DNA from: Eledone cirrhosa
Lineage: Eukaryota
DNA length: 64,000 nucleotides
NCBI GenBank assembly: GCA_964016885.1
Contig: OZ024766.1
Span: 15,810,001 to 15,874,000 of the forward strand
Reading direction: 5' to 3'
The notes beneath the pieces are model-generated. The model saw nothing but the letters and a program-made list of their open reading frames with translations. It searched no databases and was not told the origin of the DNA. The translations under genes were made by a program, and so were the position numbers. Below, piece after piece: positions 2,206 to 60,644 of the stretch (the first letter of the stretch is position 1; the number at the start of each line of letters is the position of its first letter).

Positions 2206-2236
2206 TGACAAAGATTTACTTAATGTCTATATTAAT

Positions 2237-4571: not shown

Positions 4572-6437
4572 ATGGAAAATAAATTGAGTGAAAAGAATAT
4601 TAAATGTGAAACAATGACTAAAGATATGGCTATTACAGAAGAGATGTCAAAGGATAGAGGAGAGAAGCCATATCACTGTGATGTCTGTGGTAAATCATTC
4701 TCTGTTAGTAGTAAATTAGCTAGTCACAAACGTATACATACAGTAGAGAAGCCATATCACTGTGATATCTGTGGTAAATCATTCTTTGTTAATGGTAATT
4801 TAACAAGCCACAAACGTACACATACAGGAGAGAAGCCATACCACTGTGATATCTGTGGTAAATCATTCTCTGAAAGTGGTAACTTAACTAGACACAAACG
4901 TATACATACAGTAGAGAAGCCATATCACTGTGATATCTGTGGTAAATCATTCTTTGTTAATGGTAATTTAACAAGCCACAAACGTACACATACAGGAGAG
5001 AAGCCATATCACTGTGATATCTGTGGTAAATCATTCTTTGTTAATGGTAATTTAACTAGCCACATGCGTATACATACAGGTGAGAAGCCATATCACTGTG
5101 ATATCTGTGGTAAATCATTCTTTGTTAATAGTAAATTAACTAGACACAAACGTACACATACAGGAGAGAAGCCATATCACTGTGATATCTGTGGTAAATC
5201 ATTCTCTGGAAGTAGTAATTTAACTAGCCACGTGCGTATACATATAGGTGACAAACCATATCACTGTGATATCTGTGGTAAATCATTCTCTCTAAGTAGT
5301 ATATTAACTTGTCACATCCGTACCCATACAGGTGATAAGCCATATCACTGTGATGTCTGTGGTAAATCATTCTCTCGAAGTGGTACCTTAACTAGCCACA
5401 AACGTACCCATACAGGAGACAAACCATATCACTGTGATATCTGTGGTAAATCATTCTCTCGAAGTAGTCATTTAACTACACACAAACATATACATACAGG
5501 AGAGAAGCCATATCACTGTGATATCTGTGGTAAATCATTCTCTTTTAGTAGTAATTTAACTTCTCACATACGTACTCATACAGGAGACAAGCCTTATCAC
5601 TGTGATATCTGTGGTAAATCATTCTCTGAAAGTGGTAACTTAACTAGTCACAAAAGTATACATACAGGAGAGAAGCCATATAACTGTGATATCTGTGGTA
5701 AATCATTCTCTAAAAGTAGTATATTAACTAACCACATGCTTATACATATAGGTGAGAAACCATATCGCTGTGATATCTGTGGTCAATCATTCTCTCTAAG
5801 TAGTATATTAACTTGTCACATCCGTACCCATACAGGTGACAAGCCATATCACTGTGATATCTGTGGTAAATCATTCTCTGAAAGTGGTAACTTAACTAGA
5901 CACAGACGTATACATACAGGAGAGAGGCCATATCACTGTGATATCTGTGGTAAATCATTCTCTTTTAGTAGTAACATAAATTCTCACATACGTACTCATA
6001 CAGGAGAGAAGCCTTATCACTGTGATATCTGTGGTAAATCATTCTTTAATAATTTTAGTTTAACTAGACACGAACGTACCCATTCAGGAGAGAAGCCATA
6101 TCACTGTGATATCTGTGGTAAATCATTCTTTGTTAATAGTAATTTAACTAGACACAAAAGTATACATACAGGAGAGAAGCCATATCACTGTCATATCTGT
6201 GGTAAATCATTCTCTCGAAGAAGTTACTTAACTGAGCACTTACGTACCCATACAGGTGAGAAGCGATATCGCTGTGATATCTGTGGTAAATCGTTCTCTC
6301 AAAGTAGTCCCTTAACTCAACACTTACGTATCCATACAGGTGAGAAGCCACATCACTGTGATATCTGTGGTGGATCATTCTCTCAATTAAGTAGTTTAAC
6401 TAGACACAAATATACCCATACAGGTAAGAAACCATAA
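4572..6437 (+). CDS. Tandem C2H2 zinc-finger protein, 21 fingers (ZNF-1)
   Basis: 621-aa ORF: 33-aa leader plus 21 x 28-aa repeats YxCxxCGKSFxxxxxLxxHxxxHTGEKP. Confidence 0.95.
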   Translation: MENKLSEKNIKCETMTKDMAITEEMSKDRGEKPYHCDVCGKSFSVSSKLASHKRIHTVEKPYHCDICGKSFFVNGNLTSHKRTHTGEKPYHCDICGKSFSESGNLTRHKRIHTVEKPYHCDICGKSFFVNGNLTSHKRTHTGEKPYHCDICGKSFFVNGNLTSHMRIHTGEKPYHCDICGKSFFVNSKLTRHKRTHTGEKPYHCDICGKSFSGSSNLTSHVRIHIGDKPYHCDICGKSFSLSSILTCHIRTHTGDKPYHCDVCGKSFSRSGTLTSHKRTHTGDKPYHCDICGKSFSRSSHLTTHKHIHTGEKPYHCDICGKSFSFSSNLTSHIRTHTGDKPYHCDICGKSFSESGNLTSHKSIHTGEKPYNCDICGKSFSKSSILTNHMLIHIGEKPYRCDICGQSFSLSSILTCHIRTHTGDKPYHCDICGKSFSESGNLTRHRRIHTGERPYHCDICGKSFSFSSNINSHIRTHTGEKPYHCDICGKSFFNNFSLTRHERTHSGEKPYHCDICGKSFFVNSNLTRHKSIHTGEKPYHCHICGKSFSRRSYLTEHLRTHTGEKRYRCDICGKSFSQSSPLTQHLRIHTGEKPHHCDICGGSFSQLSSLTRHKYTHTGKKP

Positions 6438-6965
6438 CAAAGTCATATCTCATTGTCTCAAAATTGTAAATTAATTAGACACAAATACATTCATATGAGT
6501 GAGAAGTCATACCACTGTGATATTGCGGAGAAATTATTCTCTTGTATTGCTACATTAACTACATACAAACATAAATATATACTGGAGAAAAGCCATATTA
6601 CTGTGATATCTGGGGGAAATTGTTATCTATAAAAGCTAGCTTAACTAGACACAAACATATACATACAGGAGAGAAACTATATCACTGTGATATCTGTGGG
6701 AAATCATTCTCTGAAATAAGTCACTTCACTCGGCACTAACATTTAAAGAAAAGGAACCATATCGTTGTGATATCTGCAGTAAATCATTCTCTAAATGTTG
6801 TGGCTTCCCTACACACTAACATATACAGGAGAGGAACCATATCACTGTGATGTCTGTGATAAATCCTTCTCTAAATGTTGTGACTTTACTAGACACTAAC
6901 ATATACAGGAGAGGAACCATATCACTGTGTTGTCTGTGGTAAATCATTTTCTAAATGTTGTGTTA
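6438..6965 (+). pseudogene. Decayed zinc-finger repeats (about 7) in the putative 3' UTR
   Basis: Finger-like DNA (ccatatcactgtgat..tgtggtaaatcattctct) with stops, indels and lost Cys/His. Also at 15715-16240, 41226-41830, 49370-49895, 60645-61172. Confidence 0.85.
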
Positions 6966-7063
6966 CCAACATAAGGTTACTTAATGGAACACAAACACGA
7001 TCAGACAAGATAAAAACCATGTCACTCACCGAAAATAGTGCCACCAATGTTGTTAATGTTTTG

Positions 7064-7069
7064 AATAAA
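7064..7069 (+). terminator. Putative polyadenylation signal AATAAA
   Basis: AATAAA followed by T/GT-rich sequence; conserved at 16337, 26271, 41927, 49992, 61271. Confidence 0.55.
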
Positions 7070-7403
7070 ACTTGTTTGTTCTGAAATTATTCTCCTTTCA
7101 TTTTATTTGTAGAAGTTGTAACCAAGACTTATGCTGACAAATCTGTATGGTACAGAATTTACAAACACTATATATATATATATATGTGTGCCAAAACATC
7201 TATGATCTCGGTTTACAGCTGATGAAGGGTTTCTTCTCTCCTTTCATCCATATTACCATCTTAAACTTTGTTTACAGTAACCACACAACTCCTTTCGTTT
7301 CTTATGATTTTATATATATATATAACAAAGGAGGTGTGGTAAAGAACCAGATGGACCATATACGCACCAGAGTACTCAATACTTAGGGTAGTAGAGCGGG
7401 TAA

Positions 7404-7524
7404 TAGGAAAATGTTTAAACCCGACGGCAGAGCTCAATCCGTTTCGACGGCTATTTCTGGAAACAGTCCAGAAATAACCGTCGAAATGACTTTAGCTCTG
7501 CTGTCGGGGTTAAACATTTTCCTA
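7404..7524. repeat. About 120-bp imperfect inverted repeat (hairpin A)
   Basis: taggaaaatgtttaaacccgacggcagagct...tttctgg-aaacagt-ccagaaa...agctctgctgtcggggttaaacattttccta. Paralogues: 16677-16797, 27821-27940, 42257-42377, 50332-50452, 61611-61731. Confidence 0.9.
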
Positions 7525-7839
7525 TATATATATATATATATATATATGTATGAGTGTATATGTCAGTGTGTAGAAAATTCTGTCCATGAAAATGATTATC
7601 TTTATTTGTATATATGTATGTGTATGTTTATATGTGTTCTTATATACATGTGTGCACATCTTGATATATTTTCAGTGTCTGTTCTAGTTCTCAGAGTACA
7701 AATCCCACTGAGGTAAAGTTGCTTTGATATTTTGAGGCCAATAAATGAAATACCAGTGAAATACTGGAGTGGTTAATTCCTCTTCTTTGTCATTGTCTGT
7801 TGTCTACTCTTGTCTTTCTCTGTATTTATATATATATAC

Positions 7840-8033
7840 ACAAAATTAAAATAAATTAAAATAAAATTAATCTAAATCAAATTATGGGTGTCATGCCAGA
7901 AAGACATGTGACATATCACCCGTAAAATAAGCTCCATGGAGCTTATTTTACGGGTGATATGGCGCACGTCTTTCTGGCATGACACCCATAATTTGATATA
8001 GATTAATTTTATTTTAATTTATCTTAATTTTGG
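7840..8033. repeat. About 194-bp loopless palindrome (hairpin B), foldback/MITE-like, set within (TA)n
   Basis: Centre aaaataagctcca|tggagcttatttt at 7936/7937; arms about 97 bp. Paralogues: 17118-17311, 28261-28431, 42712-42899, 50764-50957, 62047-62240. Confidence 0.92.
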
Positions 8034-8949: not shown

Positions 8950-9010
8950 TACGACAAACCCGTCCAACCCATGCTAGCATGGAAGATAGACAATAATCGA
9001 TGATGATGAT
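8950..9010 (+). mobile_element. RTE-type LINE/SINE 3' tail remnant
   Basis: acccgtccaacccatgctagcatggaag...gatgatgatgat resembles the 3' end of the LINE at about 27670-27730. Confidence 0.6.
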
Positions 9011-11247: not shown

Positions 11248-11278
<31 letters not shown>

Positions 11279-13764: not shown

Positions 13765-15714
13765 ATGGAAAATAAATTGAGTGAAACGAAGATTAAATGT
13801 GAAACAATGTCTAAAGATATGGCTATTACAGAAGAGATGTCAAAGGATAGAGGAGAGAAGCCATATCACTGTGATGTTTGTGGTAAATCATTCTCTGAAA
13901 GTAGTAAATTAACTAGTCACAAACGTATACATACAGTAGAGAAGCCATATCACTGTGATATCTGTGGTAAATCATTCTTTGTTAATGGTAATTTAACAAG
14001 CCACAAACGTACACATACAGTAGAGAAACCATATCACTGTGATGTCTGTGGTAAATCATTCCTTGATAATAGTAAATTAACTAGCCACATGCGTATACAT
14101 AGAGGTGAGAAACCATATCACTGTGATATCTGTGGTAAATCATTCTCTGAAAGTGGTCACTTAACTAGCCACAAACGTATACATACAGGAGAGATGCCAT
14201 ATCACTGTGATATCTGTGGTAAATCATATTCTCAGAGTAATGCCTTAACAAGCCACAAACGTATACATACAGGAGACAAGCCATATCACTGTGATATCTG
14301 TGGTCAATCATTCTCTCGAAGTGGTACCTTAACTAGCCACAAACGTATACATACAGGAGAGAAGCCATACCACTGTGATATCTGTGGTAAATCATTCTAT
14401 GATAGTAGTACCTTAACTAGCCACAAACGTATACATACAGGAGAGAAGCCATATCACTGTGATATCTGTGGTAAATCATTCTTTGTTAATGGTAATTTAA
14501 ATAGCCACATGCGTATACATACAGGAGAGAAGCCATATCACTGTGATATCTGTGGTAAATCATTCTTTGTTAATGGTAATTTAAATAGCCACATGCGTAT
14601 ACATACAGGAGAGAAGCCATATCACTGTGATATCTGTGGTAAATCATTCTCTGTAAGTGGTAACTTAACTAGCCACAAACGTATACATACAGGAGAGATG
14701 CCATATCACTGTGATATCTGTGGTAAATCATTCTCTGTAAGTGGTAACTTAACTAGCCACAAACGTATACATACAGGAGAGATGCCATATCACTGTGATA
14801 TCTGTGGTAAATCATATTCTCGGAGTAATGCCTTAACAAGCCACAAACGTATACATACAGGAGACAAGCCATATCACTGTGATATCTGTGGTCAATCATT
14901 CTCTCGAAGTGGTACCTTAACTAGCCACAAACGTATACATACAGGAGAGAAGCCATACCACTGTGATATCTGTGGTAAATCATTCTTTGTTAATGGTAAT
15001 TTAAATAGCCACATGCGTATACATACAGGTGAGAAGCCATATCACTGTGATATCTGTGGTAAATCATATTCTCACAGTAATGCCTTAACTAGCCACAAAC
15101 GTATCCATACAGGAGACAAGCCATATCGCTGTGATATCTGTGGTAAATCATTCTCTCGAAGAAGTTACTTAACTGAGCACTTACGTATCCATACAGGAGA
15201 CAAGCCATATCACTGTGATATCTGTGGTCAATCATTCTCTCGAAGTGGTACCTTAACTAGCCACAAACGTATACATACAGGAGAGAAGCCATACCACTGT
15301 GATATCTGTGGTAAATCATTCTATGATAGTAGTACCTTAACTAGCCACAAACGTATACATACAGGAGAGAAGCCATATCACTGTGATATCTGTGGTAAAT
15401 CATTCTTTGAAAATAGTAAATTAACTAGTCACAAACGTACACATACGGGAGAGAAGCCATATCACTGTGATATCTGTGGTAAATCATTCTCTGAAAGTAG
15501 TACCTTAACTAGCCACAAACGTATCCATACAGGAGAGAAGCCATATCGCTGTGATATCTGTGGTAAATCATTCTCTCAAAGTAGTCCCTTAACTCAACAC
15601 TTACGTATCCATACAGGTGAGAAGCCACATCACTGTGATATCTGTGGTAAATCATTCTCTCAATTAAGTAATTTAACTAAACACAAAAATACCCATACAG
15701 GTAAGAAACCATAA
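13765..15714 (+). CDS. Tandem C2H2 zinc-finger protein, 22 fingers (ZNF-2)
   Basis: 649-aa ORF: 33-aa leader plus 22 x 28 aa. Confidence 0.95.
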
Positions 15715-23362: not shown

Positions 23363-23895
23363 ACAGCAGGACCTGAAGAATGCGATCATATGCATTTTCA
23401 AGGTCTATAAAACGATAATATATACCTCTTAGCAATACTCCCACGATTTCTCAAAGACCTGCCACAGTGTGAATATTTGGTGGGTTATGTTGCACCCAGG
23501 GAGCAAACAGCACTGTCCATCAGCTGTGACTCGCTACATCACTTTGCCAGAAACTTAGCATATACTTTACCATGGAGTCTTAACAAGGTGATCCCTCTCT
23601 ATTTGGAACAATCTCTTGTGTGTCCCTTTTTATCAATTGGGATTATCACTCCCGATTGCCTTTGCTTGAGTGCCATTTCAGAGACCCAGGCCATCTGACA
23701 CACATGAGTCGGTCATATTTGAGCTCTTTAATTGCTCTTGTGACCTCAGCCTCCGAGAGATTAGTCACCGCTACCAGATTCACCTCATGTACATCCGAAG
23801 ATGCTGTTGTGATCGGGTTTAGGAGATCAGAACAGTATTCTCTCCACCTCATGAGAAGAGAAACCCAGATGCACTCATGGTTGCAGGTGTGGAGG
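23363..23895 (-). mobile_element. RTE-clade LINE fragment, unit 3
   Basis: ORF 23646..23852(-); small deletion relative to other units. Confidence 0.78.
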
Positions 23896-24542: not shown

Positions 24543-25742
24543 ATGGAAAATATATTGAGTGAAAAGAAGATTAAATGTGAAATAATGTCTAAAGATATGG
24601 CTATTACAGAAGAGATGTCAAAGGATAGAGGAGAGAAGCCATATCACTGTGATATCTGTGGTATATCATTCTCTCTAAGTTGTATATTAACTTGTCACAT
24701 ACGTACCCATACATGTAACAAACCATATCACTGTGATATCTGTGGTAAATCATTCTTTGTGAGAAGAAATTTAACTAATCACATACGTACCCATACAGGA
24801 GAGAAGCCATATAACTGTGATATCTGTGGTAAATCATTCTCTCAAAGTAGTATATTAACTAACCACATACGTATACATACAGGTGAGAAGCCATATCACT
24901 GTGATATCTGTGGTAAATCATTCTCTCTAAGTAATACATTAACTTGTCACATACGTACCCATACATGTAACAAACCATATCACTGTGATATCTGTGGTAA
25001 ATCATTCTCTTTTAGGAGTAATTTAACTAATCACAAACGTATACATACAGGAGAGAAGCCATATCATTGTGATATCTGTGGTAAATTGTTCTCAACAAGT
25101 GGTACATTAACTTCTCACATACGTACTCATACAGGAGACAAGCCTTATCACTGTGATATCTGTGGTAAATCATTCAATAGTAGTAGTACCTTAACTATCC
25201 ACAAACGTACCCATACAGGAGACAAGCCATATCACTGTGATATATGTAGTAAATCATTCTCTGATAGTAGTACCTTAACTAGCCACAAACGTACCCATAC
25301 AGGAGACAAGCCATATCACTGTGATATCTGTGGAAAATCATTCTTTGTTACTGGTAATTTAACTAGCCACAAACGTATACATACAGGAGACAAGCCATAT
25401 CACTGTGATATCTGTGGGAAATCATTCTCTCAAAGTGGTACCTTAACTAGCCACAAACGTATACATACAGGAGAGAAGCCATATCACTGTGATATCTGTG
25501 GTAAATCATTCTCTGTAAGTAGTGCCTTACCTAGACACAAACGTACTCATACAGGAGACACGCCATACCACTGTGATATCTGTGGGAAATCATTCTCTCG
25601 AAGTAGTCACTTAACTAGACACAAACATATACATACAGGAGACAAACCATATCACTGTGATATCTGTGGTAAATCATTCAATAAAAGTAGTCACTTAACT
25701 GCACACATGCGTATACATACAGGTGACAAACCATATCACTGA
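24543..25742 (+). CDS. Tandem C2H2 zinc-finger protein, 13 fingers, truncated by a frameshift (ZNF-3; possibly a pseudogene)
   Basis: 399-aa ORF; cactgtgat became cactgat (2-bp deletion) creating TGA at 25740-25742. Confidence 0.88.
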
Positions 25743-26175
<433 letters not shown>

Positions 26176-29262: not shown

Positions 29263-32200
29263 TTGTCATGTTGAATGTTTTTCAAGATGTTATGGTCGGC
29301 ATATTTCTGGTCATCCACCAGTCAAGGTTTATTTTCATACACAAACTTACGCAACACTTCAATATCATGGTTTGTCTCCTGAAAAACTGATTGTATTACC
29401 TCAATTTCTTCTGGCTCTGGCATCCTGGATTGCTATTCATTGCTGGAATTCAATGGGACAGGTTGCACAGAGGTTGATTGTAAATCCTGGAGGTAGATTC
29501 CACATAAATATTGCTATAACATCTTTGGGCTGGGTGTAGATAGTCGTCTGACATATTGTTTTTGTACTCCTGCCAGGGTAGATGAGATTTATTCCACATG
29601 CTGTGAGTATAGTAGCAAACAACTGTCTTATTTAACTGGCTACTCCAGTGTCTGCTCCTTCTAGTCTCTTCTTCCAATGTCAGTTGTCATACAGGAGTCC
29701 ATGGCTGACTTATTTAACTGGCTACTCCAGTGACTGCTCCTTCTAGTCCCTTCTTCCAATGTCAGTTGTCATACAGGTGTCAATGGCTGTTATTTTACTG
29801 GCTACTCCAGTGACTGCTCCTTCTGGTCCCTTCTTCCAATGATAGTTGTCATACAGGTGTCAATGGCTGTTATTTAACTGGCTACTGCAGTGACTGCTCC
29901 TTCTGGTCCCTTCTTCCAATGTCAGTTGTCATACAGGTGTCAATGGCTGTTATTTAACTGACTGCTCCTTCTAGTCCCTTTTTCCAATGTCAGTTGTCAT
30001 ACAGGTGTCCATGGCTGTCTTATTTAACTGGCTACTCCAGTGACTGCCCCTTCTAGTCCCTTCTTCCAATGTCAGTTGTCATACAGGTGTCCATGGCTGT
30101 CTTATTTAACTGGCTACTCCAGTGACTGCCCCTTCTAGTCCCTTCTTCCAATGTCAGTTGTCATACAGGTGTCCATGGCTGTCTTATTTAACTGGCTACT
30201 CCAGTGACTGCCCCTTCTAGTCCCTTCTTCCAATGTCAGTTGTCATACAGGAGTCCATGGCTGTCTTATTTAACTGGCTACTCCAGTGACTGCCCCTTCT
30301 AGTCCCTTCTTCCAATGTCAGTTGTCATACAGGTGTCCATGGCTGTCTTATTTAACTGGCTACTCCAGTGACTGCTCCTTCTCGTCTCTCTTTCCAATAT
30401 CAGTTGTCTTACAGGAGTCCATGGCTGTCTTATTTAACTGGCTACTCCAGTGACTGCTCCTGCTAGTCTCTTCTTCCAATGTCAGTTGTCATACAGGAGT
30501 CCATGGCTGTCTTATTTAACTGGCTACTCCAGTGACTGCTCCTTCTAGTCCCTTCTTCCAATGTCAGTTGTCATACAGGTGTCCATGACTGTCTTATTTA
30601 ACTGGATACTCCAGTGATTGCCCCATCTAGTCTCTTCTTCCAATGTCAGTTGACATACAGGTGTCCATGGCTGTCTTATTTAACTGGCTACTCCAGTGAC
30701 TGCTCCCTCTAGTCCCTTCTTCCAATGTCAGTTGTCATACAGGAGTCCATGACTGTCTTATTTAACTGGCTACTCCAGTGACTGCTCCTTCTAGTCCCTT
30801 CTTCCAATATCAGTTGTCATACAGAAGTCCATGGCTGTCTTATTTAACTGGCTACTCCAGTGACTGCTCCTTCTAGTCCCTTCTTCCAATGTCAGTTGTC
30901 ATACAGGTGTCCATGGCTGTCTTATTTAACTGGCTACTCCAGTGACTGCTACTTCTAGTCTCTTCTTCCAATATCAGTTGTCATACAGGAGTCCATGGCT
31001 GTCTTATTTAACTGGCTACTCAAGTGACTGCTCCTTCTAGTCCATTCTTCCAATGTCAGTTGTCATACAGGAGTCCATGGTTGTCTTATTTAACTGGCTA
31101 CTCAAGTGACTGCTCCTTCTAGTCCATTCTTCCAATGTCAGTTGTCATACAGGAGTCCATGGTTGTCTTATTTAACTGGCTACTCAAGTGACTGCTCCTT
31201 CCAGTCCATTCTTCCAACGTCAGTTGTCATACAGGAGTCGATGGCTGTCTTATTTAACTGGCTACTCAAGTGACTGCTCCTTCTAGTCCATTCTTCCAAT
31301 GTCAGTTGTCATACAGGAGTCCATGGTTTTCTTATTTAACTGACTACTCCAGTGACTGCTCCTTTTAGTCCCTTCTTCCAATGTCAGTTGTCATACAGGT
31401 GTCCATGGCTGTCTTATTTAACTGGCTACTCCAGTGACTGCTCCTTCTAGTCTCTTCTTCTAATGTCAGTTGTCATACAGGTGTCCATGGCTGTCTTATT
31501 TAACTGGCTACTCCAGTGACTGCTCCTTCTAGTCCCTTCTTCCAATGTCAGTTGTCATACAGGTGTCCATGGCTGACTTATTTAACTGGCTACTCCAGTG
31601 ACTGCTCCTTCTAGTCCCTTCTTCCAATGTCAGTTGTCATACAGGTGTCCATGGCTGTCTTATTGAAATGGCTACTCCAGTGACTGCTCCTTCTAGTCCC
31701 TTCTTCCAATGTCAATTGTCATACAGGTGTCCATGGCTGTCTTATTTAACTGGCTACTCCAGTGACTGCTCCTTCTAGTCCCTTCTTCCAATGTCAGTTG
31801 TCATACAGGTGTCCATGGCTGTCTTATTTAACTGGCTACTCCAGTGACTGCTCCTTCTAGTCCCTTCTTCCAATGTCAGTTGTCATACAGGTGTACATGG
31901 CTGACTTATTTAACTGGCTACTCCAGTGATTGCCCCTTCTAGTCTCTTCTTCCAATGTCAGTTATACAGGTGTCCATGGCTGTCTTATTTAACTGGCTAC
32001 TCCAGTGATTTCCCCTTCTAGTCCCTTCTTCCAATGTCAGTTGTCATACAGGAGTCCATGGCTGTCTTATTTAACTGGCTACTTCAGTGACTGCTCCTTC
32101 TAGTCCCTTCTTCCAATGTCAGTTGTCATACAGGAGTCCATGTCTGTCTTATTTAACTGGCTACTCCAGTGACTGCTCCTTCTAGTCCCTTCTTCCAATG

Positions 32201-35200
32201 TTAGTTGTCATACAGGTGTCCATGGCTGTCTTATTTAACTGGCTACTCCAGTGACTGCTCCTTTTAGTCCCTTCTTCCAATGTCAGTTGTCATACAGGTG
32301 TCCATGGCTGTCTTATTTAACTGGTTACTCCAGTGGCTGCTCCTTCTAGTCCCTTCTTCCAATGTCAGTTGTCATACAGGAGTCCATGTCTGTCTTATTT
32401 AACTGGCTACTCCAGTGACTGCTCCTTCTAGTCCCTTCTTCCAATGTTAGTTGTCATACAGGTGTCCATGGCTGTCTTATTTAACTGGCTACTCCAGTGA
32501 CTGCTCCTTTTAGTCCCTTCTTCCAATGTCAGTTGTCATACAGGTGTCCATGGCTGTCTTATTTAACTGGCTACTCCAGTGACTGCCCCTTCTAGTCTCT
32601 TCTTCCAACGTCAGTTGTCATACAGGTGTCCATGTCTGTCTTATTTAACTGGCTACTCCTGTGACTGCTCCTTCTAGTCTCTTCTTCCAATGTCAGTTAT
32701 CATACAGGAGTCCATGGCTGTCTTATTTAACTGGCCACTCCAGTGACTGCTCCTTCTAGTCTCTTCTTCCAATGTCAGTTGTCATACAGGTGTCCATGGC
32801 TGTCTTACTTAACTGGCTACTCCAGTGATTTCCCCTTCTAGTCCCTTCTTCCAATGTCAGTTGTCATACAGGAGTCCATGGCTGTCTTATTTAACTGGCT
32901 ACTGCAGTGACTGCTCCTTCTAGTCTCTTCTTCCAATATCAGTTGTCATACAGGTGTCCATGGCTGTCTTATTTAACTGGCTACTCCAGTGATTTCCCCT
33001 TCTAGTCCCTTCTTCCAATGTCAGTTGTCATACTGGAGTCCATGGCTGTCTTATTTAACTGGCTACTGCAGTGACTGCTCCTTCTAGTCTCTTCTTCCAA
33101 TATCAGTTGTCATACAGGTGTCCATGGCTGTCTTATTTAACTGGCTACTCCAATGACTGCTCCTTCTAGTCCCTTCTTCCAATGTCAGTTGTCATACAGG
33201 TGTCCATGGCTGTCTTATTTAACTGGCTACTGCAGTGACTGCTCCTTCTTCTCTCTTCTTCCAATGTCAGTTGTCATACAGGAGTCCATGGCTGTCTTAT
33301 TTAACTGGCTACTCCATTGATTTCCCCTTCTAGTCCCTTCTTCCAATGTCAGTTGTTATACAGGTGTCCATGGCTGTCTTATTTAACTGGCTACTCCAGT
33401 GATTTCCCCTTCTAGTCCCTTCTTCCAATGTCAGTTGTCATACAGGAGTCCATGGCTGTCTTATTTAACTGGCTACTCCAGTGATTTCCCCTTCTAGTCA
33501 CTTCTTCCAATGTCAGTTCTCATACAGGTGTCCATGGCTGTCTTATTTAACTGGCTACTCCAGTGACTGCTCCTTCTAGTCCCTTCTTCCAATGTCAGTT
33601 GTCATACAGGTGTCCATGGCTGTCTTATTTAACTGGCTACTCCAGTGACTGCTCCTTCTAGTCTCTTCTTCTAATGTCAGTTGTCATACAGGTGTCCATG
33701 GCTGTCTTATTTAACTGACTGTTCCTTCTAGTCCCTTCTTCCAATGTCAGTTGTCATACAGGTGTCCATGGCTGACTTATTTAACTGGCTACTCCAGTGA
33801 CTGCTCCTTCTAGTCCCTTCTTCCAATGTTAGTTGTCATACCGGTGTCCATGGCTGTCTTATTTAACTGGCTACTCCAGTGACTGCTCCTTCTAGTCTCT
33901 TCTTCCAATGTCAGTTGTCATACAGGTGTACATGGCTGACTTATTTAACTGGCTACTCCAGTGATTGCCCCTTCTAGTCTCTTCTTCCAATGTCAGTTAT
34001 CATACAGGAGTCCATGGCTGTCTTATTTAACTGGCTACTCAAGTGACTGCTCCTTCTAGTCCATTCTTCCAATGTCAGTTGTCATACAGGTGTCCATGGC
34101 TGTCTTATTTAACTGGCTACTCCAATGACTGCTCCTTCTAGTCCCTTCTTCCAATGTCAGTTGTCATACAGGTGTCCATGGCTGTCTTATTTAACTGGCT
34201 ACTGCAGTGACTGCTCCTTCTACTCTCTTCTTCCAATGTCAGTTGTCATACAGGAGTCCATGGCTGTCTTATTTAACTGGCTACTCCATTGATTTCCCCT
34301 TCTAGTCTCTTCTTCCAATGTCAGTTGTCATACAGGTGTGCATGGCTGACTTATTTAACTGGCTACTCCAGTGATTGCCCCTTCTAGTCTCTTCTTCCAA
34401 TGTCAGTTGTCATACAGGAGTCCATGGCTGTCTTATTTAACTGGCTACTGCAGTGACTGCTCCTTCTAGTCTCTTCTTCCAATATCAGTTGTCATACAGG
34501 TGTCCATGGCTGTCTTATTTAACTGGCTACTCCAGTGACTGCTCCTTCTAGTCCCTTCTTCCAATGTCAGTTGTTATACAGGTGTCCATGGCTGTCTTAT
34601 TTAACTGGCTACTCCAGTGATTTCCCCTTCTAGTCCCTTCTTCCAATGTCAGTTGTCATACTGGAGTCCATGGCTGTCTTATTTAACTGGCTACTGCAGT
34701 GACTGCTCCTTCTAGTCTCTTCTTCCAATATCAGTTGTCATACAGGTGTCCATGGCTGTCTTATTTAACTGGCTACTCCAATGACTGCTCCTTCTAGTCC
34801 CTTCTTCCAATGTCAGTTGTCATACAGGTGTCCATGGCTGTCTTATTTAACTGGCTACTGCAGTGACTGCTCCTTCTTCTCTCTTCTTCCAATGTCAGTT
34901 GTCATACAGGAGTCCATGGCTGTCTTATTTAACTGGCTACTCCATTGATTTCCCCTTCTAGTCCCTTCTTCCAATGTCAGTTGTTATACAGGTGTCCATG
35001 GCTGTCTTATTTAACTGGCTACTCCAGTGATTTCCCCTTCTAGTCCCTTCTTCCAATGTCAGTTGTCATACAGGAGTCCATGGCTGTCTTATTTAACTGG
35101 CTACTCCAGTGATTTCCCCTTCTAGTCACTTCTTCCAATGTCAGTTCTCATACAGGTGTCCATGGCTGTCTTATTTAACTGGCTACTCCAGTGACTGCTC

Positions 35201-36613
35201 CTTCTAGTCCCTTCTTCCAATGTCAGTTGTCATACAGGTGTCCATGGCTGTCTTATTTAACTGGCTACTCCAGTGACTGCTCCTTCTAGTCTCTTCTTCT
35301 AATGTCAGTTGTCATACAGGTGTCCATGGCTGTCTTATTTAACTGACTGCTCCTTCTAGTCCCTTCTTCCAATGTCAGTTGTCATACAGGTGTCCATGGC
35401 TGACTTATTTAACTGGCTACTCCAGTGACTGCTCCTTCTAGTCCCTTCTTCCAATGTTAGTTGTCATACCGGTGTCCATGGCTGTCTTATTTAACTGGCT
35501 ACTCCAGTGACTGCTCCTTCTAGTCTCTTCTTCCAATGTCAGTTGTCATACAGGTGTACATGGCTGACTTATTTAACTGGCTACTCCAGTGATTGCCCCT
35601 TCTAGTCTCTTCTTCCAATGTCAGTTATCATACAGGAGTCCATGGCTGTCTTATTTAACTGGCTACTCAAGTGACTGCTCCTTCTAGTCCATTCTTCCAA
35701 TGTCAGTTGTCATACAGGTGTCCATGGCTGTCTTATTTAACTGGCTACTCCAATGACTGCTCCTTCTAGTCCCTTCTTCCAATGTCAGTTGTCATACAGG
35801 TGTCCATGGCTGTCTTATTTAACTGGCTACTGCAGTGACTGCTCCTTCTACTCTCTTCTTCCAATGTCAGTTGTCATACAGGAGTCCATGGCTGTCTTAT
35901 TTAACTGGCTACTCCATTGATTTCCCCTTCTAGTCCCTTCTTCCAATGTCAGTTGTCATACAGGTGTCCATGGCTGTCTTATTTAACTGGCTACTCCAGT
36001 GATTTCCACTTCTAGTCCCTTCTTCCAATGTCAGTTGTCATACAGGAGTCCATGGCTGTCTTATTTAACTGGCTACTCCAGTGATTTCCCCTTCTAGTCA
36101 CTTCTTCCAATGTCAGTTGTCATACAGGTGTCCATGGCTGTCTTATTTAACTGGCTACTCCAGTGACTTCCCCTTCTAGTCTCTTCTTCCAATGTCAATT
36201 GCCCCATGCATGAGTTGTTGTTCTTTAGATGCTTCTTGGTATGTGCTGCACTCTTCCACCAAATCACCTGAGATCCTCAAATAACGTTGGTCCTTGAACA
36301 ATATGCAGAAGTGACTGTAAATAAAAACTCTCTCTGTTGTTGGGGTGGTCATTGTAAACATGCCCAATAGCATCACTTGCCTTGACTTCATCACCTTCCA
36401 CTAAATGACCCTGCTTCCTTTGATTCCAAGTCTTACAATTGGTCCAGGTGTAGTATTTTGGGATGTCAGCATATAGGAGGGATCGAACAAATTCTTTATT
36501 CTGGCAGAGTTTCAAAAAGCAGTTAGAGTAGTGTCAGGTGGTACTGGTGTCAACTAATGAGCAGTGGTTTCAGTGAAGTACACACTCTGTCCATTTTCTA
36601 TATGTATAGAGAT
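29263..36613 (-). mobile_element. Helitron Rep/helicase relic, unit 4, split by a 6.6-kb minisatellite expansion
   Basis: ORFs 29437..29622(-), 29450..29677(-) and 36264..36515(-) carry the same Helitron peptides on both sides of the array. Confidence 0.87.
29623..36201. repeat. 82-bp minisatellite array, unit 4 (about 80 copies)
   Basis: Uninterrupted 82-bp periodicity over about 6.58 kb, with an internal 1628-bp duplication. Confidence 0.98.
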
Positions 36614-39611: not shown

Positions 39612-41225
39612 ATGGAAAATATATTGAGTGAAAAGAAGATTAAATGTGAAACAATGTCTAAAGATATGGCTATTACAGAAGAGATGTCAAAGGATAGAGG
39701 AGAGAAGCCATATCACTGTGATGTCTGTGGTAAATCATTCTCTGTTAGGAGTAAATTAACTAGTCACAAACGTACCCATACAGGAGAGAAGCCATATAAC
39801 TGTGATATCTGTGATAAATCATTCTCTGAAAGTGGTACCTTAACTATACACAAACGTATACATACAGTAGAGAAGTCATATCACTGTGATATCTGTGGTA
39901 AATCATTCTTTGTTAATGGTAATTTAACAAGACACAAACGTACACATACAGGAGAGAAGCCATACCACTGTGATATCTGTGGTAAATCATTCTCTCGAAG
40001 TAGTCACTTAACTGGCCACAAACGGACACATACGGGTGAGAAGCCATATCGCTGTTTTATCTGTGGTAAATCATTCTCTCTAAGTAGTATATTAACTTTT
40101 CACGTACGTACCCATACAGGTGACAAACCATATCACTGTGATATCTGTGGTAAATCATTCTCTCGAAATAATATATTAACTTGTCACATACGTACCCATA
40201 CAGGAGACAAGCCATATCACTGTGATATCTGTGGTAAATCATTCTCTCGAAGTAGTAAATTAACTAACCACATGCATATACATATAGGTGAGAAACCATA
40301 TCGCTGTGATATTTGTGGTAAATCATTCTCTCGAAATAATACATTAACTTGTCACATACGTACCCATACAGGAGACAAGCCATATCACTGTGATATCTGT
40401 GGTAAATCATTCTCTCTAAGTAGTATATTAACTTTTCACGTATGTACCCATACAGGTGACAAACCATATCACTGTGATATCTGTGGTAAATCATTCTCTC
40501 GAAATAATATATTAACTTGTCACATACGTACCCATACAGGAGACAAGCCATATCACTGTGATATCTGTGGTAAATCATTCTCTCAAAGTGGTCACTTAAC
40601 TAGCCACAAACGTACCCATACAGTAGAGAAACCATATCGCTGTGATATCTGTGGTAAATCATTCTTTGTTAATAGTAAATTAACTAGACACAAACGTGTA
40701 CATACAGTAGACAAGCCATATCACTATGATATCTGTGGTAAATCATTCTCTGATAGTGGTAGCTTAACTAGCCACAAACGTATACATATAAGAGAGAAGC
40801 CATATCACTGTGATATCTGTGGTAAATCATTCTCTCAAAGTCCTGGCTTAACTAGGCACAAACGTATACATACAGGAGACAAGCCATATCACTGTGATAT
40901 CTGTGGTAAATCATTCTCTCAAAGTCCTGGCTTAACTAGGCACAAACGTATACATACAGGAGAGAAGCCATATCACTGTGATATCTGTGGTAAATCATTC
41001 TCTGAAAGTGGTAACTTAACTAGCCACAAACGTATACATACAGGAGAGAAGCCATATCACTGTGATATCTGTGGTAAATCATTCTCTGAAAGTGGTAACT
41101 TAACTAGCCACAAACGTATACATACAGGTGAGAAGCCACATCACTGTGATATCTGTGGTAAATCATTCTCTCAATTAAGTAGTTTAACTAGACACAGATA
41201 TACCCATACAGGTAAGAAACCATAA
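39612..41225 (+). CDS. Tandem C2H2 zinc-finger protein, 18 finger units, one with Cys to Tyr (ZNF-4)
   Basis: 537-aa ORF; finger 13 reads YHYDIC (tat at 40725). Confidence 0.95.
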
Positions 41226-43338: not shown

Positions 43339-43378
<40 letters not shown>

Positions 43379-48091: not shown

Positions 48092-49369
48092 ATGGAAAAT
48101 AAATTGAGGGAAAAGAAGATTAAATGTGAAACAATGTCTAAAGATATGGCTATTACAGAAGAGATGTCAAAGGATAGAGGAGAGAAGCCATATCACTGTG
48201 ATGTTTGTGGTAAATCATTCTCTCGAAGTAGTAATTTAACTAGCCACATGCGTATACATACAGGTGAGAAGCCATATCACTGTGATATCTGTGGTAAATC
48301 ATTCTCTGAAAGTGGTAACTTAACTAGCCACATGCGTATACATACAGGTGAGAAGCCATATCACTGTGATATCTGTGGTAAATCATTCTTTCTTAATAGT
48401 AAATTAACTAGCCACAAACGTACACATACAGGAGAGAAGCCATATCACTGTGATATCTGTGGTAAATCATTCTCTCTAAGTAGTATATTAACTTGTCACA
48501 TCCGTACCCATACAGGTGACAAGCAATATCACTGTGATATCTGTGGTAAATCATTCTCTGAAAGTGGTAACTTAACTAGACACAAGCGTATACATACAGG
48601 AGAGAAGCCATATCACTGTGATATCTGTGGTAAATCATTCTCTTTTAGTAGTAATATAAATTCTCACATACGTACTCATACAGGAGAGAAGCCATATCAC
48701 TGTGATATCTGTGGTAAATCATTCTTTAATAATATTAGTTTAACTAGACACGAACGTACCCATTCAGGAGAGAAGCCATATCACTGTGATATCTGTGGTA
48801 AATCATTCTTTGTTAATAGTAATTTAACTAGACACAAAAGTATACATACAGGAGAGAAGCCATATCACTGTGATATCTGTGGTAAATCATTCTCTGAAAG
48901 TGGTACCTTAACTAGCCACAAACGTATACATACAGGAGACAAGCCATATCACTGTGATATCTGTGGTAAATCATTCTCTCAAAGAAGTTACTTAACTGAG
49001 CACTTACGTATCCATACAGGTGAGAAGCCATATCACTGTGATATCTGTAGTAAATCATTCTCTGATAGTGGTACCTTAACTAGCCACATACGTATACATA
49101 CAGGAGAGAAGCCATATCACTGTGATATCTGTAGTAAATCATTCTCTGAAAGTGGTACCTTAACTAGACACAAACGTATCCATACAGGAGAGAAGCCACA
49201 TCACTGTGATATCTGTGGTAAATCATTCTCTGAAAGTGGTACCTTAACTAGACACAAACGTATCCATACAGGAGAGAAGCCATACCACTGTGATATCTGT
49301 GGTATATCATTCTCTCAATTAAGTAGTTTAACTAAACACAAATATACCCATACAGGTAAGAAACCATAA
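48092..49369 (+). CDS. Tandem C2H2 zinc-finger protein, 14 fingers (ZNF-5)
   Basis: 425-aa ORF: 33-aa leader plus 14 x 28 aa. Confidence 0.95.
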
Positions 49370-51422
49370 CAGAGTCATATCTCATTGTCTCAAAATTGTA
49401 AATTAATTAGACACAAATACATTCATATGAGTGAGAAGCCATACCACTGTGGTATTGTGGAGAAATAATTCTCTTGTATTGCTACATTAACTACATACAA
49501 ACATAAATATATACTGGAGAAAAGCCATATTACTGTGATATCTGTGGAAATTGTTATCTATAAAAGCTAGCTTAACTAGACACAAACATATATATACAGG
49601 AGAGAAACTATATCACTGTGATATCTGTGGGAAATCATTCTCTGAAATAAGTCACTTCACTCAGCACTAACATTTACAGAAAAGGAACCATATCACTGTG
49701 ATATCTGCAGTAAATCATTCTCTATATGTGGCTTCACTAGACACTAACATATACAGGAGAGGAACTATATCACTGTGATGTCTGTGGTAAATCCTTCTCT
49801 AAATGTTGAGAATTCCCTACACACTAACACATACAGGAGAGGAACCATATCACTGTGTTGTCTATGGTAAATCATTTTCTAAATGTTGTGGTACCAACAT
49901 AAGGTTACTTAATGTAACAGAAACACATTCAGACAAGATAAAAACCATATCACTCACCCAAAATAGTGCCACCAATGTTGTTAATGTTTTGAATAAAACT
50001 TGTTTGTTCTGAAATTATTCTCCTCTCATTTTATTAGTAGAAGTTGTAACCAAGACTTATGCTGACAAATCTGTATGGTACAGAATTTACAAACACTGTA
50101 TATATATATATATGTGCCAAAACATCTATGATCTCGGTTTACAGCTGATGAAGGGTTTATTTTCTCCTTTCATCCATATTACCATCTCAAACTTTGTTTA
50201 CAGTAACCACACAGCTCCTTTCGTTTCTTAGAATTTTATATATATATATATAACAAAGGAGGTGTGGTAAAGAACCAGATGGACCATATACACACCAGAG
50301 TACTCAATACTTACGGTAGTAGAGCGGGTAATAGGAAAATGTTTAACCCCGACGGCAGAGCTCAAACCGTTTCGACGGCTATTTCTGGAAACAGTCCAGA
50401 CATAACCGTCGAAATGGCTTGAGCTCTGCCGTCAGGGTTAAAGGTTTTCCTATATATATATATGTAAGAGTGTATATTTCAGTGTGTAGAAATTTCTGTC
50501 CATGAAAATGATTATCTTTATTTGTGTATATGTGTATATGTATATGTATGTTTTTATGTGTTCTTATATACATGTGTGCACATCTTGAAATATTTTCAGT
50601 GTCTGTTCTAGTTCTCAGAGTACAAATCCCACTGAGGTAAAGTTGCTTCGATATTTTGAGGTCAATAAATGAAATACCAGTGAAATACTGGGGTGGTTAA
50701 TTCCTCTTCTTTGTCATTGTCTGTTGTCTACTCTTGTCTTTCTCTGTATTTATATATATATATCCAAAATTAAGATAAATTAAAATAAAATTAATGTAAA
50801 TCAAATTATGGGTGTCATGCCAGAAAGACAGGCGCCATATCACTCGTAAAATAAGCTCCATGGAGCTTATTTTATGGGTGATATGGTGCATGTCTTTCTG
50901 GCATGACACCCATAATTTGATATAGAATAATTTTATTTTAATTTATCTTAATTTTGGATACATATATATATATAAGTACGGTCCCTTAATTGTAGAGCTA
51001 ACTCTGTTGAAAGGACCTGACTGCTGTTTCTAGTTGTCAATAACTCTATTCACGCCACTGGGACAAAGCTGGTATGATGTGTGTATTTTTAGTAGATACA
51101 GCACGTGTTACTGGTCAGTCGCTGATTTGAACTTGATGCGTAAACACAGATGGTTGGACTTCTTCCTGGTTGAGAATCCAAGATCTGGCTACTGTCGTTT
51201 ACCAATCGATTAATTGGTGAAATATATTTCTTTAATGGAATATATACAAGGAAGATTTATCATTTTCTAAGGTATCTATTTTTGAAGTTCTAGTTAAACT
51301 TTATTTAGTTACCTACCTAGCAATGTGTGCTTACACACTTTTACAAATTATCCCCTGTGATTGTTTCATATGTTTATTTATATTTCAATCAATTTCTAGT
51401 TGATATATATATATATATATAT

Positions 51423-57579: not shown

Positions 57580-58128
57580 ACAGCAGGACCTGAAGAATGC
57601 GATCATATGCATTTTCAAGGTCTATAAAACGATAATATATACCTCTTAGCAATACTCCCACGATTTCTCAAAGACCTGCCACAGTGTGAATATTTGGTGG
57701 GTTATGTTGCACCCAGGGAGCAAACAGCACTGTCCATCAGCTGTGACTCGCTACATCACTTTGCCAGAAACTTAGCATATACTTTACCATGGAGTCTTAA
57801 CAAGGTGATCCCTCTCTATTTGGAACAATCTCTTGTGTGTCCCTTTTTATCAATTGGGATTATCACTCCCGATTGCCTTTGCTTGAGTGCCATTTCAGAG
57901 ACCCAGGCCATCTGACACACATGAGTCGGTCATATTTGAGCTCTTTAATTGCTCTTGTGACCTCAGCCTCCGAGAGATTAGTCACTGCTATCAGATTCAC
58001 CTCATGTACATCCGAAGATGCTGTTGTGATCGGGTTTGGGAGATCAGCAAAGTATTCTCTCCACCTCATGAGGATCCATCTCTCTGAAGAGAAAAGAACC
58101 CCAGATACACTCATGGTTGCAGGTGTGG
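57580..58128 (-). mobile_element. RTE-clade LINE fragment, unit 6
   Basis: ORF 57863..58114(-). Confidence 0.8.
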
Positions 58129-58777
58129 AGAAAGATTTCTTGTAACTAATTAAAAACTAAAATAATTTGATTTTTCAATAAAAATTTCCAGGGTTTATAG
58201 ATGTAAAATTTCCACTGTTAAATCTATCTCTGCTTCTTAAGTATTCTCTATTATCTCATACTGTTTCTTTTTCATTTCAGAATATCAGATGACATTGGGA
58301 TAAATTATTATTTTCAATCTTGGATACATCACCTCTATTTATCATCATTTGAAGATTAAAACTTTTTAAACGGAGCTTATATAACACTGTTTATATAAAT
58401 CTATCAGAATTACTGTGAAAATTATTATTTTCAATCTTGGATACATCACCTTTATTTATCATCATTTGAAGATTAAAACTTTTTAAACAGAACTTATATA
58501 ACACTGTTTATACAAATCTATCAGAATTACTGTGATATATTTCCTCAGAACTGAGTTTAAAGACAAAATTTCTTTTCTTCACTGTGTGGTGTATATATGA
58601 GAGATATATTTTGTATTTTAACTCAGCTTCAATGACAAAGAAGTTTGCATCATCTTCAGGTATTAACTGAGATCATAATTGAGGGAAATATAACAGAAAT
58701 AATATTTTTTAGGAATATAATATAAAAAATATTAAAGAATAACATCTGTAAATTCTGCCAAGGGAAGAAGAATTATT

Positions 58778-60644
58778 ATGGAAAATAAATTGAGTGAAAA
58801 GAAGATTAAATGTGAAACAATGACTAAAGATATGGCTATTACAGAAGAGATGTCAAAGGATAGAGGAGAGAAGCCATATCACTGTGATGTCTGTGGTAAA
58901 TCATTCTCTGTTAGTAGTAAATTAACTAGTCACAAACGTATACATACAGTAGAGAAGCCATATCACTGTGATATCTGTGGTAAATCATTCTTTGTTAATG
59001 GTAATTTAACAAGCCACAAACGTACACATACAGGAGAGAAGCCATACCACTGTGATATCTGTGGTAAATCATTCTCTGAAAGTGGTAACTTAACTAGACA
59101 CAAACGTATACATACAGTAGAGAAGCCATATCACTGTGATATCTGTGGTAAATCATTCTTTGTTAATGGTAATTTAACAAGCCACAAACGTACACATACA
59201 GGAGAGAAGCCATATCACTGTGATATCTGTGGTAAATCATTCTTTGTTAATGGTAATTTAACTAGCCACATGCGTATACATACAGGTGAGAAGCCATATC
59301 ACTGTGATATCTGTGGTAAATCATTCTTTGTTAATAGTAAATTAACTAGACACAAACGTACACATACAGGAGAGAAGCCATATCACTGTGATATCTGTGG
59401 TAAATCATTCTCTGGAAGTAGTAATTTAACTAGCCACGTGCGTATACATATAGGTGACAAACCATATCACTGTGATATCTGTGGTAAATCATTCTCTCTA
59501 AGTAGTATATTAACTTGTCACATCCGTACCCATACAGGTGATAAGCCATATCACTGTGATGTCTGTGGTAAATCATTCTCTCGAAGTGGTACCTTAACTA
59601 GCCACAAACGTACCCATACAGGAGACAAACCATATCACTGTGATATCTGTGGTAAATCATTCTCTCGAAGTAGTCATTTAACTACACACAAACATATACA
59701 TACAGGAGAGAAGCCATATCACTGTGATATCTGTGGTAAATCATTCTCTTTTAGTAGTAATTTAACTTCTCACATACGTACTCATACAGGAGACAAGCCT
59801 TATCACTGTGATATCTGTGGTAAATCATTCTCTGAAAGTGGTAACTTAACTAGTCACAAAAGTATACATACAGGAGAGAAGCCATATAACTGTGATATCT
59901 GTGGTAAATCATTCTCTAAAAGTAGTATATTAACTAACCACATGCTTATACATATAGGTGAGAAACCATATCGCTGTGATATCTGTGGTCAATCATTCTC
60001 TCTAAGTAGTATATTAACTTGTCACATCCGTACCCATTACAGGTGACAAGCCATATCACTGTGATATCTGTGGTAAATCATTCTCTGAAAGTGGTAACTT
60101 AACTAGACACAGACGTATACATACAGGAGAGAGGCCATATCACTGTGATATCTGTGGTAAATCATTCTCTTTTAGTAGTAACATAAATTCTCACATACGT
60201 ACTCATACAGGAGAGAAGCCTTATCACTGTGATATCTGTGGTAAATCATTCTTTAATAATTTTAGTTTAACTAGACACGAACGTACCCATTCAGGAGAGA
60301 AGCCATATCACTGTGATATCTGTGGTAAATCATTCTTTGTTAATAGTAATTTAACTAGACACAAAAGTATACATACAGGAGAGAAGCCATATCACTGTCA
60401 TATCTGTGGTAAATCATTCTCTCGAAGAAGTTACTTAACTGAGCACTTACGTACCCATACAGGTGAGAAGCGATATCGCTGTGATATCTGTGGTAAATCG
60501 TTCTCTCAAAGTAGTCCCTTAACTCAACACTTACGTATCCATACAGGTGAGAAGCCACATCACTGTGATATCTGTGGTGAATCATTCTCTCAATTAAGTA
60601 GTTTAACTAGACACAAATATACCCATACAGGTAAGAAACCATAA
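58778..60644 (+). CDS. Tandem C2H2 zinc-finger gene, near-identical to ZNF-1, with a +1 frameshift after finger 14 (ZNF-6)
   Basis: ORF 58778..60046 (422 aa); acccataca became acccattaca at 60037-60038. Seven further fingers continue to the GKKP-TAA stop at 60644. Confidence 0.88.

What the first reader, a model, noticed from the sequence alone, without database searches (positions are those of the whole stretch)
4572..60644. Combinatorial shuffling of 84-bp finger modules among paralogues
Seen: the scaffold ccatatcactgtgatatctgtggtaaatcattct is almost invariant at the DNA level across about 110 fingers, while variation concentrates in helix positions -1 to 6. The same helices reappear in different genes and orders: VNGNLT (ZNF-1, 2, 4, 6), ESGNLT (1, 4, 5, 6), LSSILT (1, 4, 5, 6), RSGTLTS (1, 2, 6), RSYLTE (1, 2, 5, 6), DSSTLTS (2, 3), RSSHLT (1, 3, 4, 6). 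Adjacent duplicates also occur (QSPGLTR twice, ESGTLTR twice, VSGNLTS twice). Known: PRDM9 finger arrays evolve as minisatellites with homogenised scaffold and diversified contact residues. Inference: here that mode operates across a multigene cluster that shares one finger pool.
Basis: partly seen in the sequence, partly recalled or inferred. Interest (0 to 1): 0.8.

Follow-up and report, generated by a model that had tools for sequence, protein, structure and literature searches.

The report
Self-reshuffling octopus zinc-finger gene cluster
Six recently duplicated, likely octopus, genes each encode a string of 13-22 DNA-reading zinc fingers that are likely copied, lost and patched mostly inside their own gene, so the fingers that the genes share were likely inherited from one ancestor rather than swapped one by one, a known way for such gene families to evolve fast.

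Summary
Gene 6 is a 99% copy of gene 1, and all units' flanks are only 0.4-5.8% apart. Shared fingers mostly keep their order, differ at flank level (3.6%), and all 9 cross-gene finger families include gene 1, so descent explains most sharing. Recent copying is mainly within genes (11 of 15 near-identical pairs, p=0.0002). Minisatellite-like behaviour is real: fingers are mosaics of each other (p=0.003), contact residues show pN/pS 2.2-2.6 against 0.5 elsewhere, and whole units recombine (flank PHI p=0.0002), with switch points beside the arrays, none shown inside. The signature is weaker than in PRDM9, and there is no KRAB or SET domain. Closest Octopus proteins share the scaffold, so it is family-wide. 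Finger-level exchange between genes is neither shown nor excluded; expression and polymorphism are untested. The scan reported a similar array once before, in another genome (e1-9925274). Verdict: new example of a known mode; interest 0.35.

The parts
4572..6437 (+). Gene 1: 31-residue leader plus 21 C2H2 fingers, one open frame; carries a member of every finger family shared between genes
13765..15714 (+). Gene 2: leader plus 22 fingers; most rebuilt array (identical fingers 6/13/17, 7/18, 8/9; exact internal repeats of 220, 164, 139, 133 bp)
24543..25742 (+). Gene 3: leader plus 13 intact fingers, then a 2-base deletion; most divergent array (11 of 13 fingers more than 4 bases from any finger of another gene)
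25726..26126 (+). Broken tail of gene 3: 5 out-of-frame finger copies with a stop and deletions
39612..41225 (+). Gene 4: leader plus 18 fingers (finger 13 has Tyr for the first Cys); internal duplications 6/10, 14/15, 16/17
48092..49369 (+). Gene 5: leader plus 14 fingers; fingers 4-8 are collinear with gene 1 fingers 14-18
58778..60644 (+). Gene 6: near-copy of gene 1, 21 fingers, with a 1-base insertion near 60037 that breaks the frame after finger 14 (real lesion or sequencing error, not resolved)
6438..6960 (+). Decayed finger relics (about 80-bp period) after the stop of gene 1; matching relics follow the other genes in the same order and diverge like flank DNA
23700..23800 (.). Approximate ancestry switch in unit 3: like unit 6 upstream, not like it downstream; lies about 0.8 kb before the start codon
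   Evidence: units 3 and 6: no difference before alignment column 1005, 19 after
49370..49900 (.). Approximate zone where units 5 and 2 become close (5' flank 2.5%, 3' flank 0.78%); at or just 3' of the array end, not pinpointed
1561..2236 (.). Segment where unit 1 differs from unit 6 by 2.3%, against 0.2-0.7% elsewhere; a third switch of ancestry
29623..36201 (.). Largest of six 82-bp satellite arrays, one per unit (80.8 copies; the others have at least 9.3, then 3.7, 16.9, 4.9 and 23.9)

Best explanation
This is a young tandem cluster of six likely octopus zinc-finger-only genes whose shared fingers were likely inherited from one ancestral array, and whose arrays likely change mainly by recombination inside each gene, with occasional recombination between whole units. 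Shown: units of about 9-15 kb (satellite, flank, finger exon, relic fingers) whose flanks are 0.4-5.8% apart; near-identical fingers concentrated within genes; collinear, flank-level-diverged fingers between genes; conflicting flank ancestries. Inferred: (1) unequal crossover between units duplicates, deletes and fuses whole units and pairs an exon with another unit's upstream region; (2) out-of-register pairing of the 84-bp repeats within an array duplicates or deletes blocks of one to three fingers; (3) short conversions and crossovers that fall inside a finger combine existing codons into new helices while keeping the scaffold uniform; (4) selection keeps diversity at positions -1, 2, 3 and 6. 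Function is inferred from the family only: sequence-specific DNA-binding proteins whose targets turn over fast, most plausibly repeats or transposons.
For: Flanks close and incongruent: units 3 and 6 differ at 21 of 2759 sites 5' but 94 of 1929 3' (p=2e-19); units 2 and 5 at 69 of 2759 and 19 of 2430 (p=1e-6); PHI on 148 informative flank sites p=0.0002. Copying within genes: pairs at 1 base or less are 11 of 763 within and 4 of 3065 between genes; longest exact repeats 220, 164, 141, 139, 133 bp within arrays against 137 and 108 bp between arrays, both collinear and shorter than the 158 and 171 bp flank runs of the same pairs. Descent: 9 of 9 cross-gene finger families include gene 1; 17 hand-picked matched pairs differ by 3.57%. 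Sub-finger recombination: two-parent mosaics leave 149 mismatches against 177 +/- 7 with codons permuted (p=0.003), linkage falls with distance (rho -0.30, p=0.001); differences between close fingers reuse codons present elsewhere (53 of 73 against 28 expected off contact; 31 of 38 against 21 at contacts). Contact pN/pS 2.2-2.6, other sites 0.47-0.52. Family: best hits of leader plus first finger are Octopus proteins.
Against: PHI on the 81 distinct fingers was not significant (p 0.22-0.60). Mosaic fit, linkage decay and reuse of codons can also come from covariation of neighbouring residues or recurrent mutation under constraint. 35 of 88 fingers have no relative within 4 bases in another gene, and 14 stay unexplained even with two parents from other genes, which leaves room for import from paralogues outside the window. 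Gene 5's array is closer to gene 1's than to that of its flank sister gene 2 (13 of 14 fingers within 5 bases of a gene 1 finger, 9 of 14 of a gene 2 finger, none within 2 bases of gene 2). Genes 1 and 6 show no finger gain or loss, so turnover is uneven. With flanks only about 3-4% apart, a single transferred finger cannot be told from an inherited one. pN/pS is not formally valid under conversion (PMC5519329).
Confidence: 0.65

Rival explanations
1. One shared finger pool: fingers or parts of fingers move between paralogues by short gene conversion often enough to shape the arrays, with donors inside and outside this window.
For: No clustering by gene (p=0.11) and 51 of 88 nearest neighbours in another gene; scaffold synonymous diversity equal within and between genes (0.059 and 0.065); units do recombine; 14 fingers lack parents among the other genes here; the 5' half of gene 5's last finger carries two variants found in no other finger of gene 5.
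Against: Recent copies are within genes; shared fingers are collinear and at flank-level divergence; no long cross-gene tract; mapped switches lie beside the arrays; lack of clustering by gene is expected from recent whole-unit duplication.
Confidence: 0.22
2. Near-neutral churn: redundant young copies decay and rearrange by repeat instability alone; contact-site diversity is inherited from an older array and is not under present selection.
For: Gene 3's tail is broken, gene 6 has a frameshift, gene 4 finger 13 lost a zinc ligand; in the 17 matched pairs non-contact amino-acid changes are not depleted (28 in 911 sites against 6 synonymous in 282, p=0.54); satellite copy number varies more than 20-fold between units.
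Against: Four long frames of 14-22 fingers are intact; 3 of the 4 zinc ligands are invariant in 88 fingers; contact changes exceed synonymous ones in close pairs (p=0.0006) and in the matched pairs (10 in 159 against 6 in 282, p=0.03; pairs hand-picked and not independent).
Confidence: 0.1
3. Part of the pattern is an assembly artefact: unit 6 is the other haplotype of unit 1, and chimeric flanks come from misjoined reads.
For: Units 1 and 6 are 99.2% identical over 5.6 kb; single- and two-base indels break genes 6 and 3.
Against: Unit 6 was left out of all finger statistics; units 1-5 differ by 1.7-5.8% per flank (except the 3' flanks of 2 and 5) and have distinct arrays; unit 6's upstream DNA is closest to unit 3, not unit 1.
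Confidence: 0.03

Closest known systems
Cephalopod (Octopus) expanded C2H2 zinc-finger gene clusters (PMC9068888, PMC12513265; first described in the 2015 octopus genome paper, recalled, not held)
   Same: Clustered, finger-only genes; short MEN...K leader and [16 protein letters not shown] scaffold as in Octopus hits (28 of 46 Octopus-labelled fingers within 2 residues of it, against 59 of 1583 other fingers). Interspersed 70-90 bp satellite is recalled from the 2015 paper; here 82- and 77-bp repeats cover 20.7% of the window.
   Different: The passages read give counts, phylogeny and expression; PMC12513265 has 0 occurrences of 'recombination' or 'conversion' in its main text. None of the 46 Octopus-labelled fingers shares a full -1 to +6 helix with this window.
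PRDM9 zinc-finger coding minisatellite (PMC2779102, PMC5519329, PMC11703093)
   Same: Identical non-adjacent fingers within a gene, reuse of codons from other fingers, excess change at -1, 3 and 6.
   Different: No KRAB, SSXRD or SET domain in the frame; multigene cluster; weaker homogenisation (6-26% of finger pairs over 90% identical against all pairs in mouse Prdm9); share of diversity at contact sites 0.36-0.45 against 0.687 human, 0.910 mouse, 0.49-0.55 salmonids, though it overlaps turtle (0.414-0.478) and a relaxed trout paralogue (0.367).
Young mouse KRAB-zinc-finger clusters (PMC5363842, PMC12575710)
   Same: Segmental duplication and non-allelic recombination of units; fingers duplicated in tandem and blocks of 2-7 repeated within a gene; arrays diverge faster than flanks; pseudogenes among copies.
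   Different: No KRAB exon found; units are small (about 10 kb) and spaced by satellites rather than retroviral elements; targets unknown.

Membership tests
Classical tandem C2H2 (Kruppel-type) zinc-finger proteins | C-X2-C-X12-H-X3-H repeats with TGEKP linkers | tested here: met
   Pfam zf-C2H2 373 bits and zf-H2C2_2 602 bits
Octopus expanded C2H2 clusters | Closest relatives are Octopus C2H2 proteins with the same scaffold and a similar leader | tested here: met
   top two hits are Octopus proteins; scaffold and leader comparison. Species not determined.
Octopus expanded C2H2 clusters | Genes clustered in tandem and interspersed with a 70-90 bp satellite (feature recalled; source paper not held) | tested here: met
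   six co-oriented genes, each preceded by 82-bp and 77-bp arrays
Octopus expanded C2H2 clusters | Expression in nervous and embryonic tissue | not testable with these tools
   no RNA run listed for the stretch
PRDM9 | KRAB, SSXRD and SET domains upstream of the array | tested here: not met
   31-residue leader with no Pfam match, in-frame stop just upstream; no such frame among the 14 ORFs of 120 aa or more in the window. A short spliced upstream coding exon was not excluded.
PRDM9 | Near-complete homogenisation of fingers within the array | tested here: not met
   pairs over 90% identical: 22/210, 61/231, 5/78, 19/153, 17/91; all pairs in mouse Prdm9 (PMC2779102)
PRDM9 | Amino-acid diversity concentrated at DNA-contact positions | tested here: inconclusive
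   0.36-0.45, above the median of 120 other finger proteins (0.29; 95th percentile 0.38-0.42), below human, mouse and salmonid PRDM9
PRDM9 | High allelic polymorphism and new alleles in the germ line; hotspot specification | not testable with these tools
   one assembly only; no genome held
KRAB-zinc-finger cluster genes | N-terminal KRAB domain | tested here: not met
   no KRAB among the 25 Pfam families shown (of 36) for gene 1, and no family in the leader
   power is low for single fingers, and donors outside the window could not be searched

The most novel reading that the evidence does not exclude
The whole octopus C2H2 family, kept alignable by a family-wide DNA scaffold, acts as one recombining library: short conversions copy codons and half-helices between paralogues, including ones outside this window, so new DNA specificities are assembled combinatorially at PRDM9-like speed across many genes at once.
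Probability: 0.22. Interest if true: 0.7.

Novelty: new member of a known kind. Interest (0 to 1): 0.35.

Why it matters
Cephalopods carry hundreds to thousands of these genes, and how their repertoire diversifies is described as open (PMC12513265, introduction). This window gives finger-level evidence for three nested processes (unit recombination, block duplication inside arrays, sub-finger mosaics) with excess change at contact residues, much as in young mouse clusters and, more weakly, PRDM9. It names testable loci: units 2 and 5 have 3' flanks under 1% apart but very different arrays. If exchange between genes were shown, it would be a new scale for the PRDM9 mode.

Tried and rejected
No whole genome is held, so paralogues outside the window could not be searched. 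The first protein search returned generic finger proteins of many animals; the leader alone found nothing. PHI on fingers: not significant. A codon model in IQ-TREE gave no omega that my script could read. No RNA holder listed; no conclusion on expression. Four runs were laid on 2900-4745, which holds one finger only: no splice joint at the predicted acceptor among the 15 joints shown (149 more not shown); contig depth is not a copy number; array variation between individuals was not examined. The 2015 octopus genome paper is not held. Considered and rejected: a PRDM9 orthologue (domains absent); the invariant scaffold as evidence of exchange special to this cluster (family-wide); lack of clustering by gene as proof of shuffling (expected from recent duplication); counting genes 1 and 6 as independent. 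Literature searches listed no finger-level recombination study of cephalopod C2H2 genes; the library lacks most subscription journals, and no supplements were read, which may bear on this.
Full report
What is there. The window holds six co-oriented units of about 9-15 kb. Each has an 82-bp satellite array, a 77-bp and a 115-bp repeat, about 1.7 kb of flank, a frame made of a 31-residue leader and tandem C2H2 fingers, and decayed finger copies after the stop. Finger numbers are 21, 22, 13, 18, 14 and 21. Pfam shows zinc-finger-type families over the frame of gene 1 (25 of 36 families shown) and nothing in the leader. With leader plus first finger as query, the two best hits are Octopus proteins; several have a similar leader, and 28 of 46 fingers from 16 Octopus-labelled hits are within 2 residues of this scaffold, against 59 of 1583 fingers from the 120 hits. 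The source is therefore likely an octopus; the species was not determined.

The observation. It is accurate. The scaffold is exact in 52 of 114 copies and within 3 mismatches in 113. All seven helix lists and three adjacent duplicates check out. But gene 6 repeats gene 1 (99.2% over 5.6 kb), so I dropped its 21 fingers and the 5 broken copies of gene 3 and worked with 88 fingers (81 distinct). The scaffold is also not special to this cluster: contigs of runs with two different organism labels pile up on the first 50 bases of the finger and continue into helices whose majority reading is not in this window.

How old the copies are. Flanks of all 15 unit pairs differ by 0.4-5.8%. An inherited finger should then differ by about 3 of 84 bases between genes. 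That is what is seen: 17 hand-picked matched pairs differ at 51 of 1428 bases (3.57%). Shared fingers keep their order: chains beat shuffled orders in 4 of 10 gene pairs (p 0.01-0.035, uncorrected), gene 5 fingers 4-8 match gene 1 fingers 14-18 as a block, and all 9 finger families that span genes contain a gene 1 finger (62 distinctive fingers clustered at 4 bases). So fingers do not cluster by gene (12.7 against 12.9 bases, p=0.11) largely because the genes are young copies of one array, for which gene 1 looks like the least changed witness (inference).

Where recent copying happens. Pairs at 1 base or less are 11 of 763 within genes and 4 of 3065 between genes (permutation p=0.0002). Only one cross-gene pair is identical, and it is collinear. 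The longest exact repeats are within arrays (220, 164, 141, 139, 133 bp); between arrays the best are 137 and 108 bp, shorter than the flank runs of the same pairs (158 and 171 bp). Repeats start and end at arbitrary offsets inside fingers, so the copied piece is not a clean 84-bp module.

Recombination inside fingers. Two-parent mosaics fit better than with codon order permuted (149 mismatches against 177 +/- 7, 300 permutations, p=0.003), and linkage falls with distance (rho -0.30, p=0.001). Differences between close fingers reuse codons found in unrelated fingers: 53 of 73 against 28 expected off contact, 31 of 38 against 21 at contacts. Oliver et al. use the same kind of reuse as a sign of conversion in PRDM9 (PMC2779102, passages). 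Against this: PHI on fingers was not significant (p 0.22-0.60), and covariation of neighbouring residues or constrained recurrent mutation could mimic part of the signal.

Recombination between units. PHI on 148 informative flank sites gives p=0.0002. Unit 3 is like unit 6 upstream (0.76%) but not downstream (4.87%), with the switch about 0.8 kb before the start codon. Units 2 and 5 are 2.5% apart upstream and 0.78% downstream, with the switch at or just after the array end. Units 1 and 6 differ by 2.3% in one upstream segment only. So paralogues do exchange DNA, in large pieces that move whole finger exons; no switch could be placed inside an array.

Selection. pN/pS at -1, 2, 3 and 6 is 2.2-2.6 under three ways of pairing fingers, against 0.47-0.52 elsewhere (p=0.0006 for 44 close pairs). 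Such ratios are not formally valid under conversion (PMC5519329, passages). The share of amino-acid diversity at contact sites is 0.36-0.45 (gene 4 used its first 12 fingers), above the median 0.29 of 120 other finger proteins and near their 95th percentile (0.38-0.42). It is below human 0.687 and mouse 0.910 and salmonid 0.49-0.55 (PMC11703093, passages). Only 6-26% of finger pairs within a gene are over 90% identical, against all pairs in mouse Prdm9. In the 17 matched pairs, non-contact amino-acid changes are not depleted (p=0.54), and genes 3 and 6 carry frame breaks, so some copies may be decaying.

What stays open. 35 of 88 fingers have no relative within 4 bases in another gene, and 14 remain so with two parents from other genes. 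They may be losses elsewhere, mosaics of vanished parents, or imports from paralogues outside the window. Gene 5's array is closer to gene 1's than to that of its flank sister gene 2; heavy rebuilding of gene 2 explains this, but replacement does too. With flanks 3-4% apart, single transferred fingers cannot be told from inherited ones. No genome and no RNA run were available.

Comparison with what is known. It belongs to the expanded cephalopod C2H2 clusters (PMC9068888, passages; PMC12513265, summary, introduction, start of results and passages). It works like young mouse KRAB-finger clusters, where fingers duplicate in tandem, blocks of 2-7 repeat within a gene and units recombine (PMC5363842, one section and passages; PMC12575710, passages), and like a weaker PRDM9. 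It is neither a PRDM9 nor a KRAB gene. A transposon-binding role is predicted for octopus finger proteins in general (PMC10547256, passages; PMC12988792, passages) and is untested here. The link with a 70-90 bp satellite is recalled from the 2015 octopus genome paper, which I could not read. Ten searches listed no finger-level recombination study in cephalopods; no supplements were read.

Verdict. Real feature; reading partly right. Best explanation (0.65): inheritance from a recent ancestral array, remodelling mainly within genes, and exchange of whole exons or flanks between units. A shared finger pool across genes keeps 0.22. New member of a known kind; interest 0.35.

Noticed in passing
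window 1-760, 9793-10093, 19380-20764, 29623-36201, 44083-44482, 53026-54984: One 82-bp satellite array per unit, 3.7 to 80.8 copies; with the 77-bp arrays it covers 20.7% of the window. The largest array is almost free of CpG.
   Followed up: partly
fingers of genes 1-5: No synonymous variant in 608 codons at seven structural positions (both Cys, both His, Asp, Phe, Leu), although the neighbouring 3' half has 19% synonymous diversity and flank C/T divergence is 1.6%. Positions were chosen after seeing the data; chance, conversion or constraint on the DNA are all open.
   Followed up: partly
window 49193-49360: Gene 5 finger 13 has the 5' half typical of terminal fingers, while the terminal finger 14 has a 5' half with two variants absent from the rest of gene 5: looks like an 84-bp insertion from a donor no longer in this gene.
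   Followed up: partly
window 812-1207 (-), 10135-10530, 20816-21211, 44535-44930, 55036-55431: A 131-codon stop-free stretch on the minus strand in five units, no Pfam match; resembles a Helitron helicase fragment (recalled, untested).
   Followed up: partly
window 26522-27731: Insertion in unit 3 only, with a 292-codon frame that starts with a PHD finger; likely the 3' end of a LINE-type retrotransposon (label recalled).
   Followed up: partly
window 7822-8051 and matching places in the other five units: A 230-bp self-complementary segment (94% identical to its reverse complement in unit 1), possibly a small DNA transposon relic.
   Followed up: no
window about 4180-4190 and matching places: A pyrimidine tract ending in CAG about 385 bases before the start codon in genes 1, 2, 4 and 5, a candidate splice acceptor; units 3 and 6 carry a 117-bp duplication just downstream of the matching place.
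   Followed up: partly
window 4194-9780 and 58402-64000: Units 1 and 6 lie 54.2 kb apart at 99.2% identity: a higher-order duplication, a long conversion, or a second haplotype in the assembly.
   Followed up: partly
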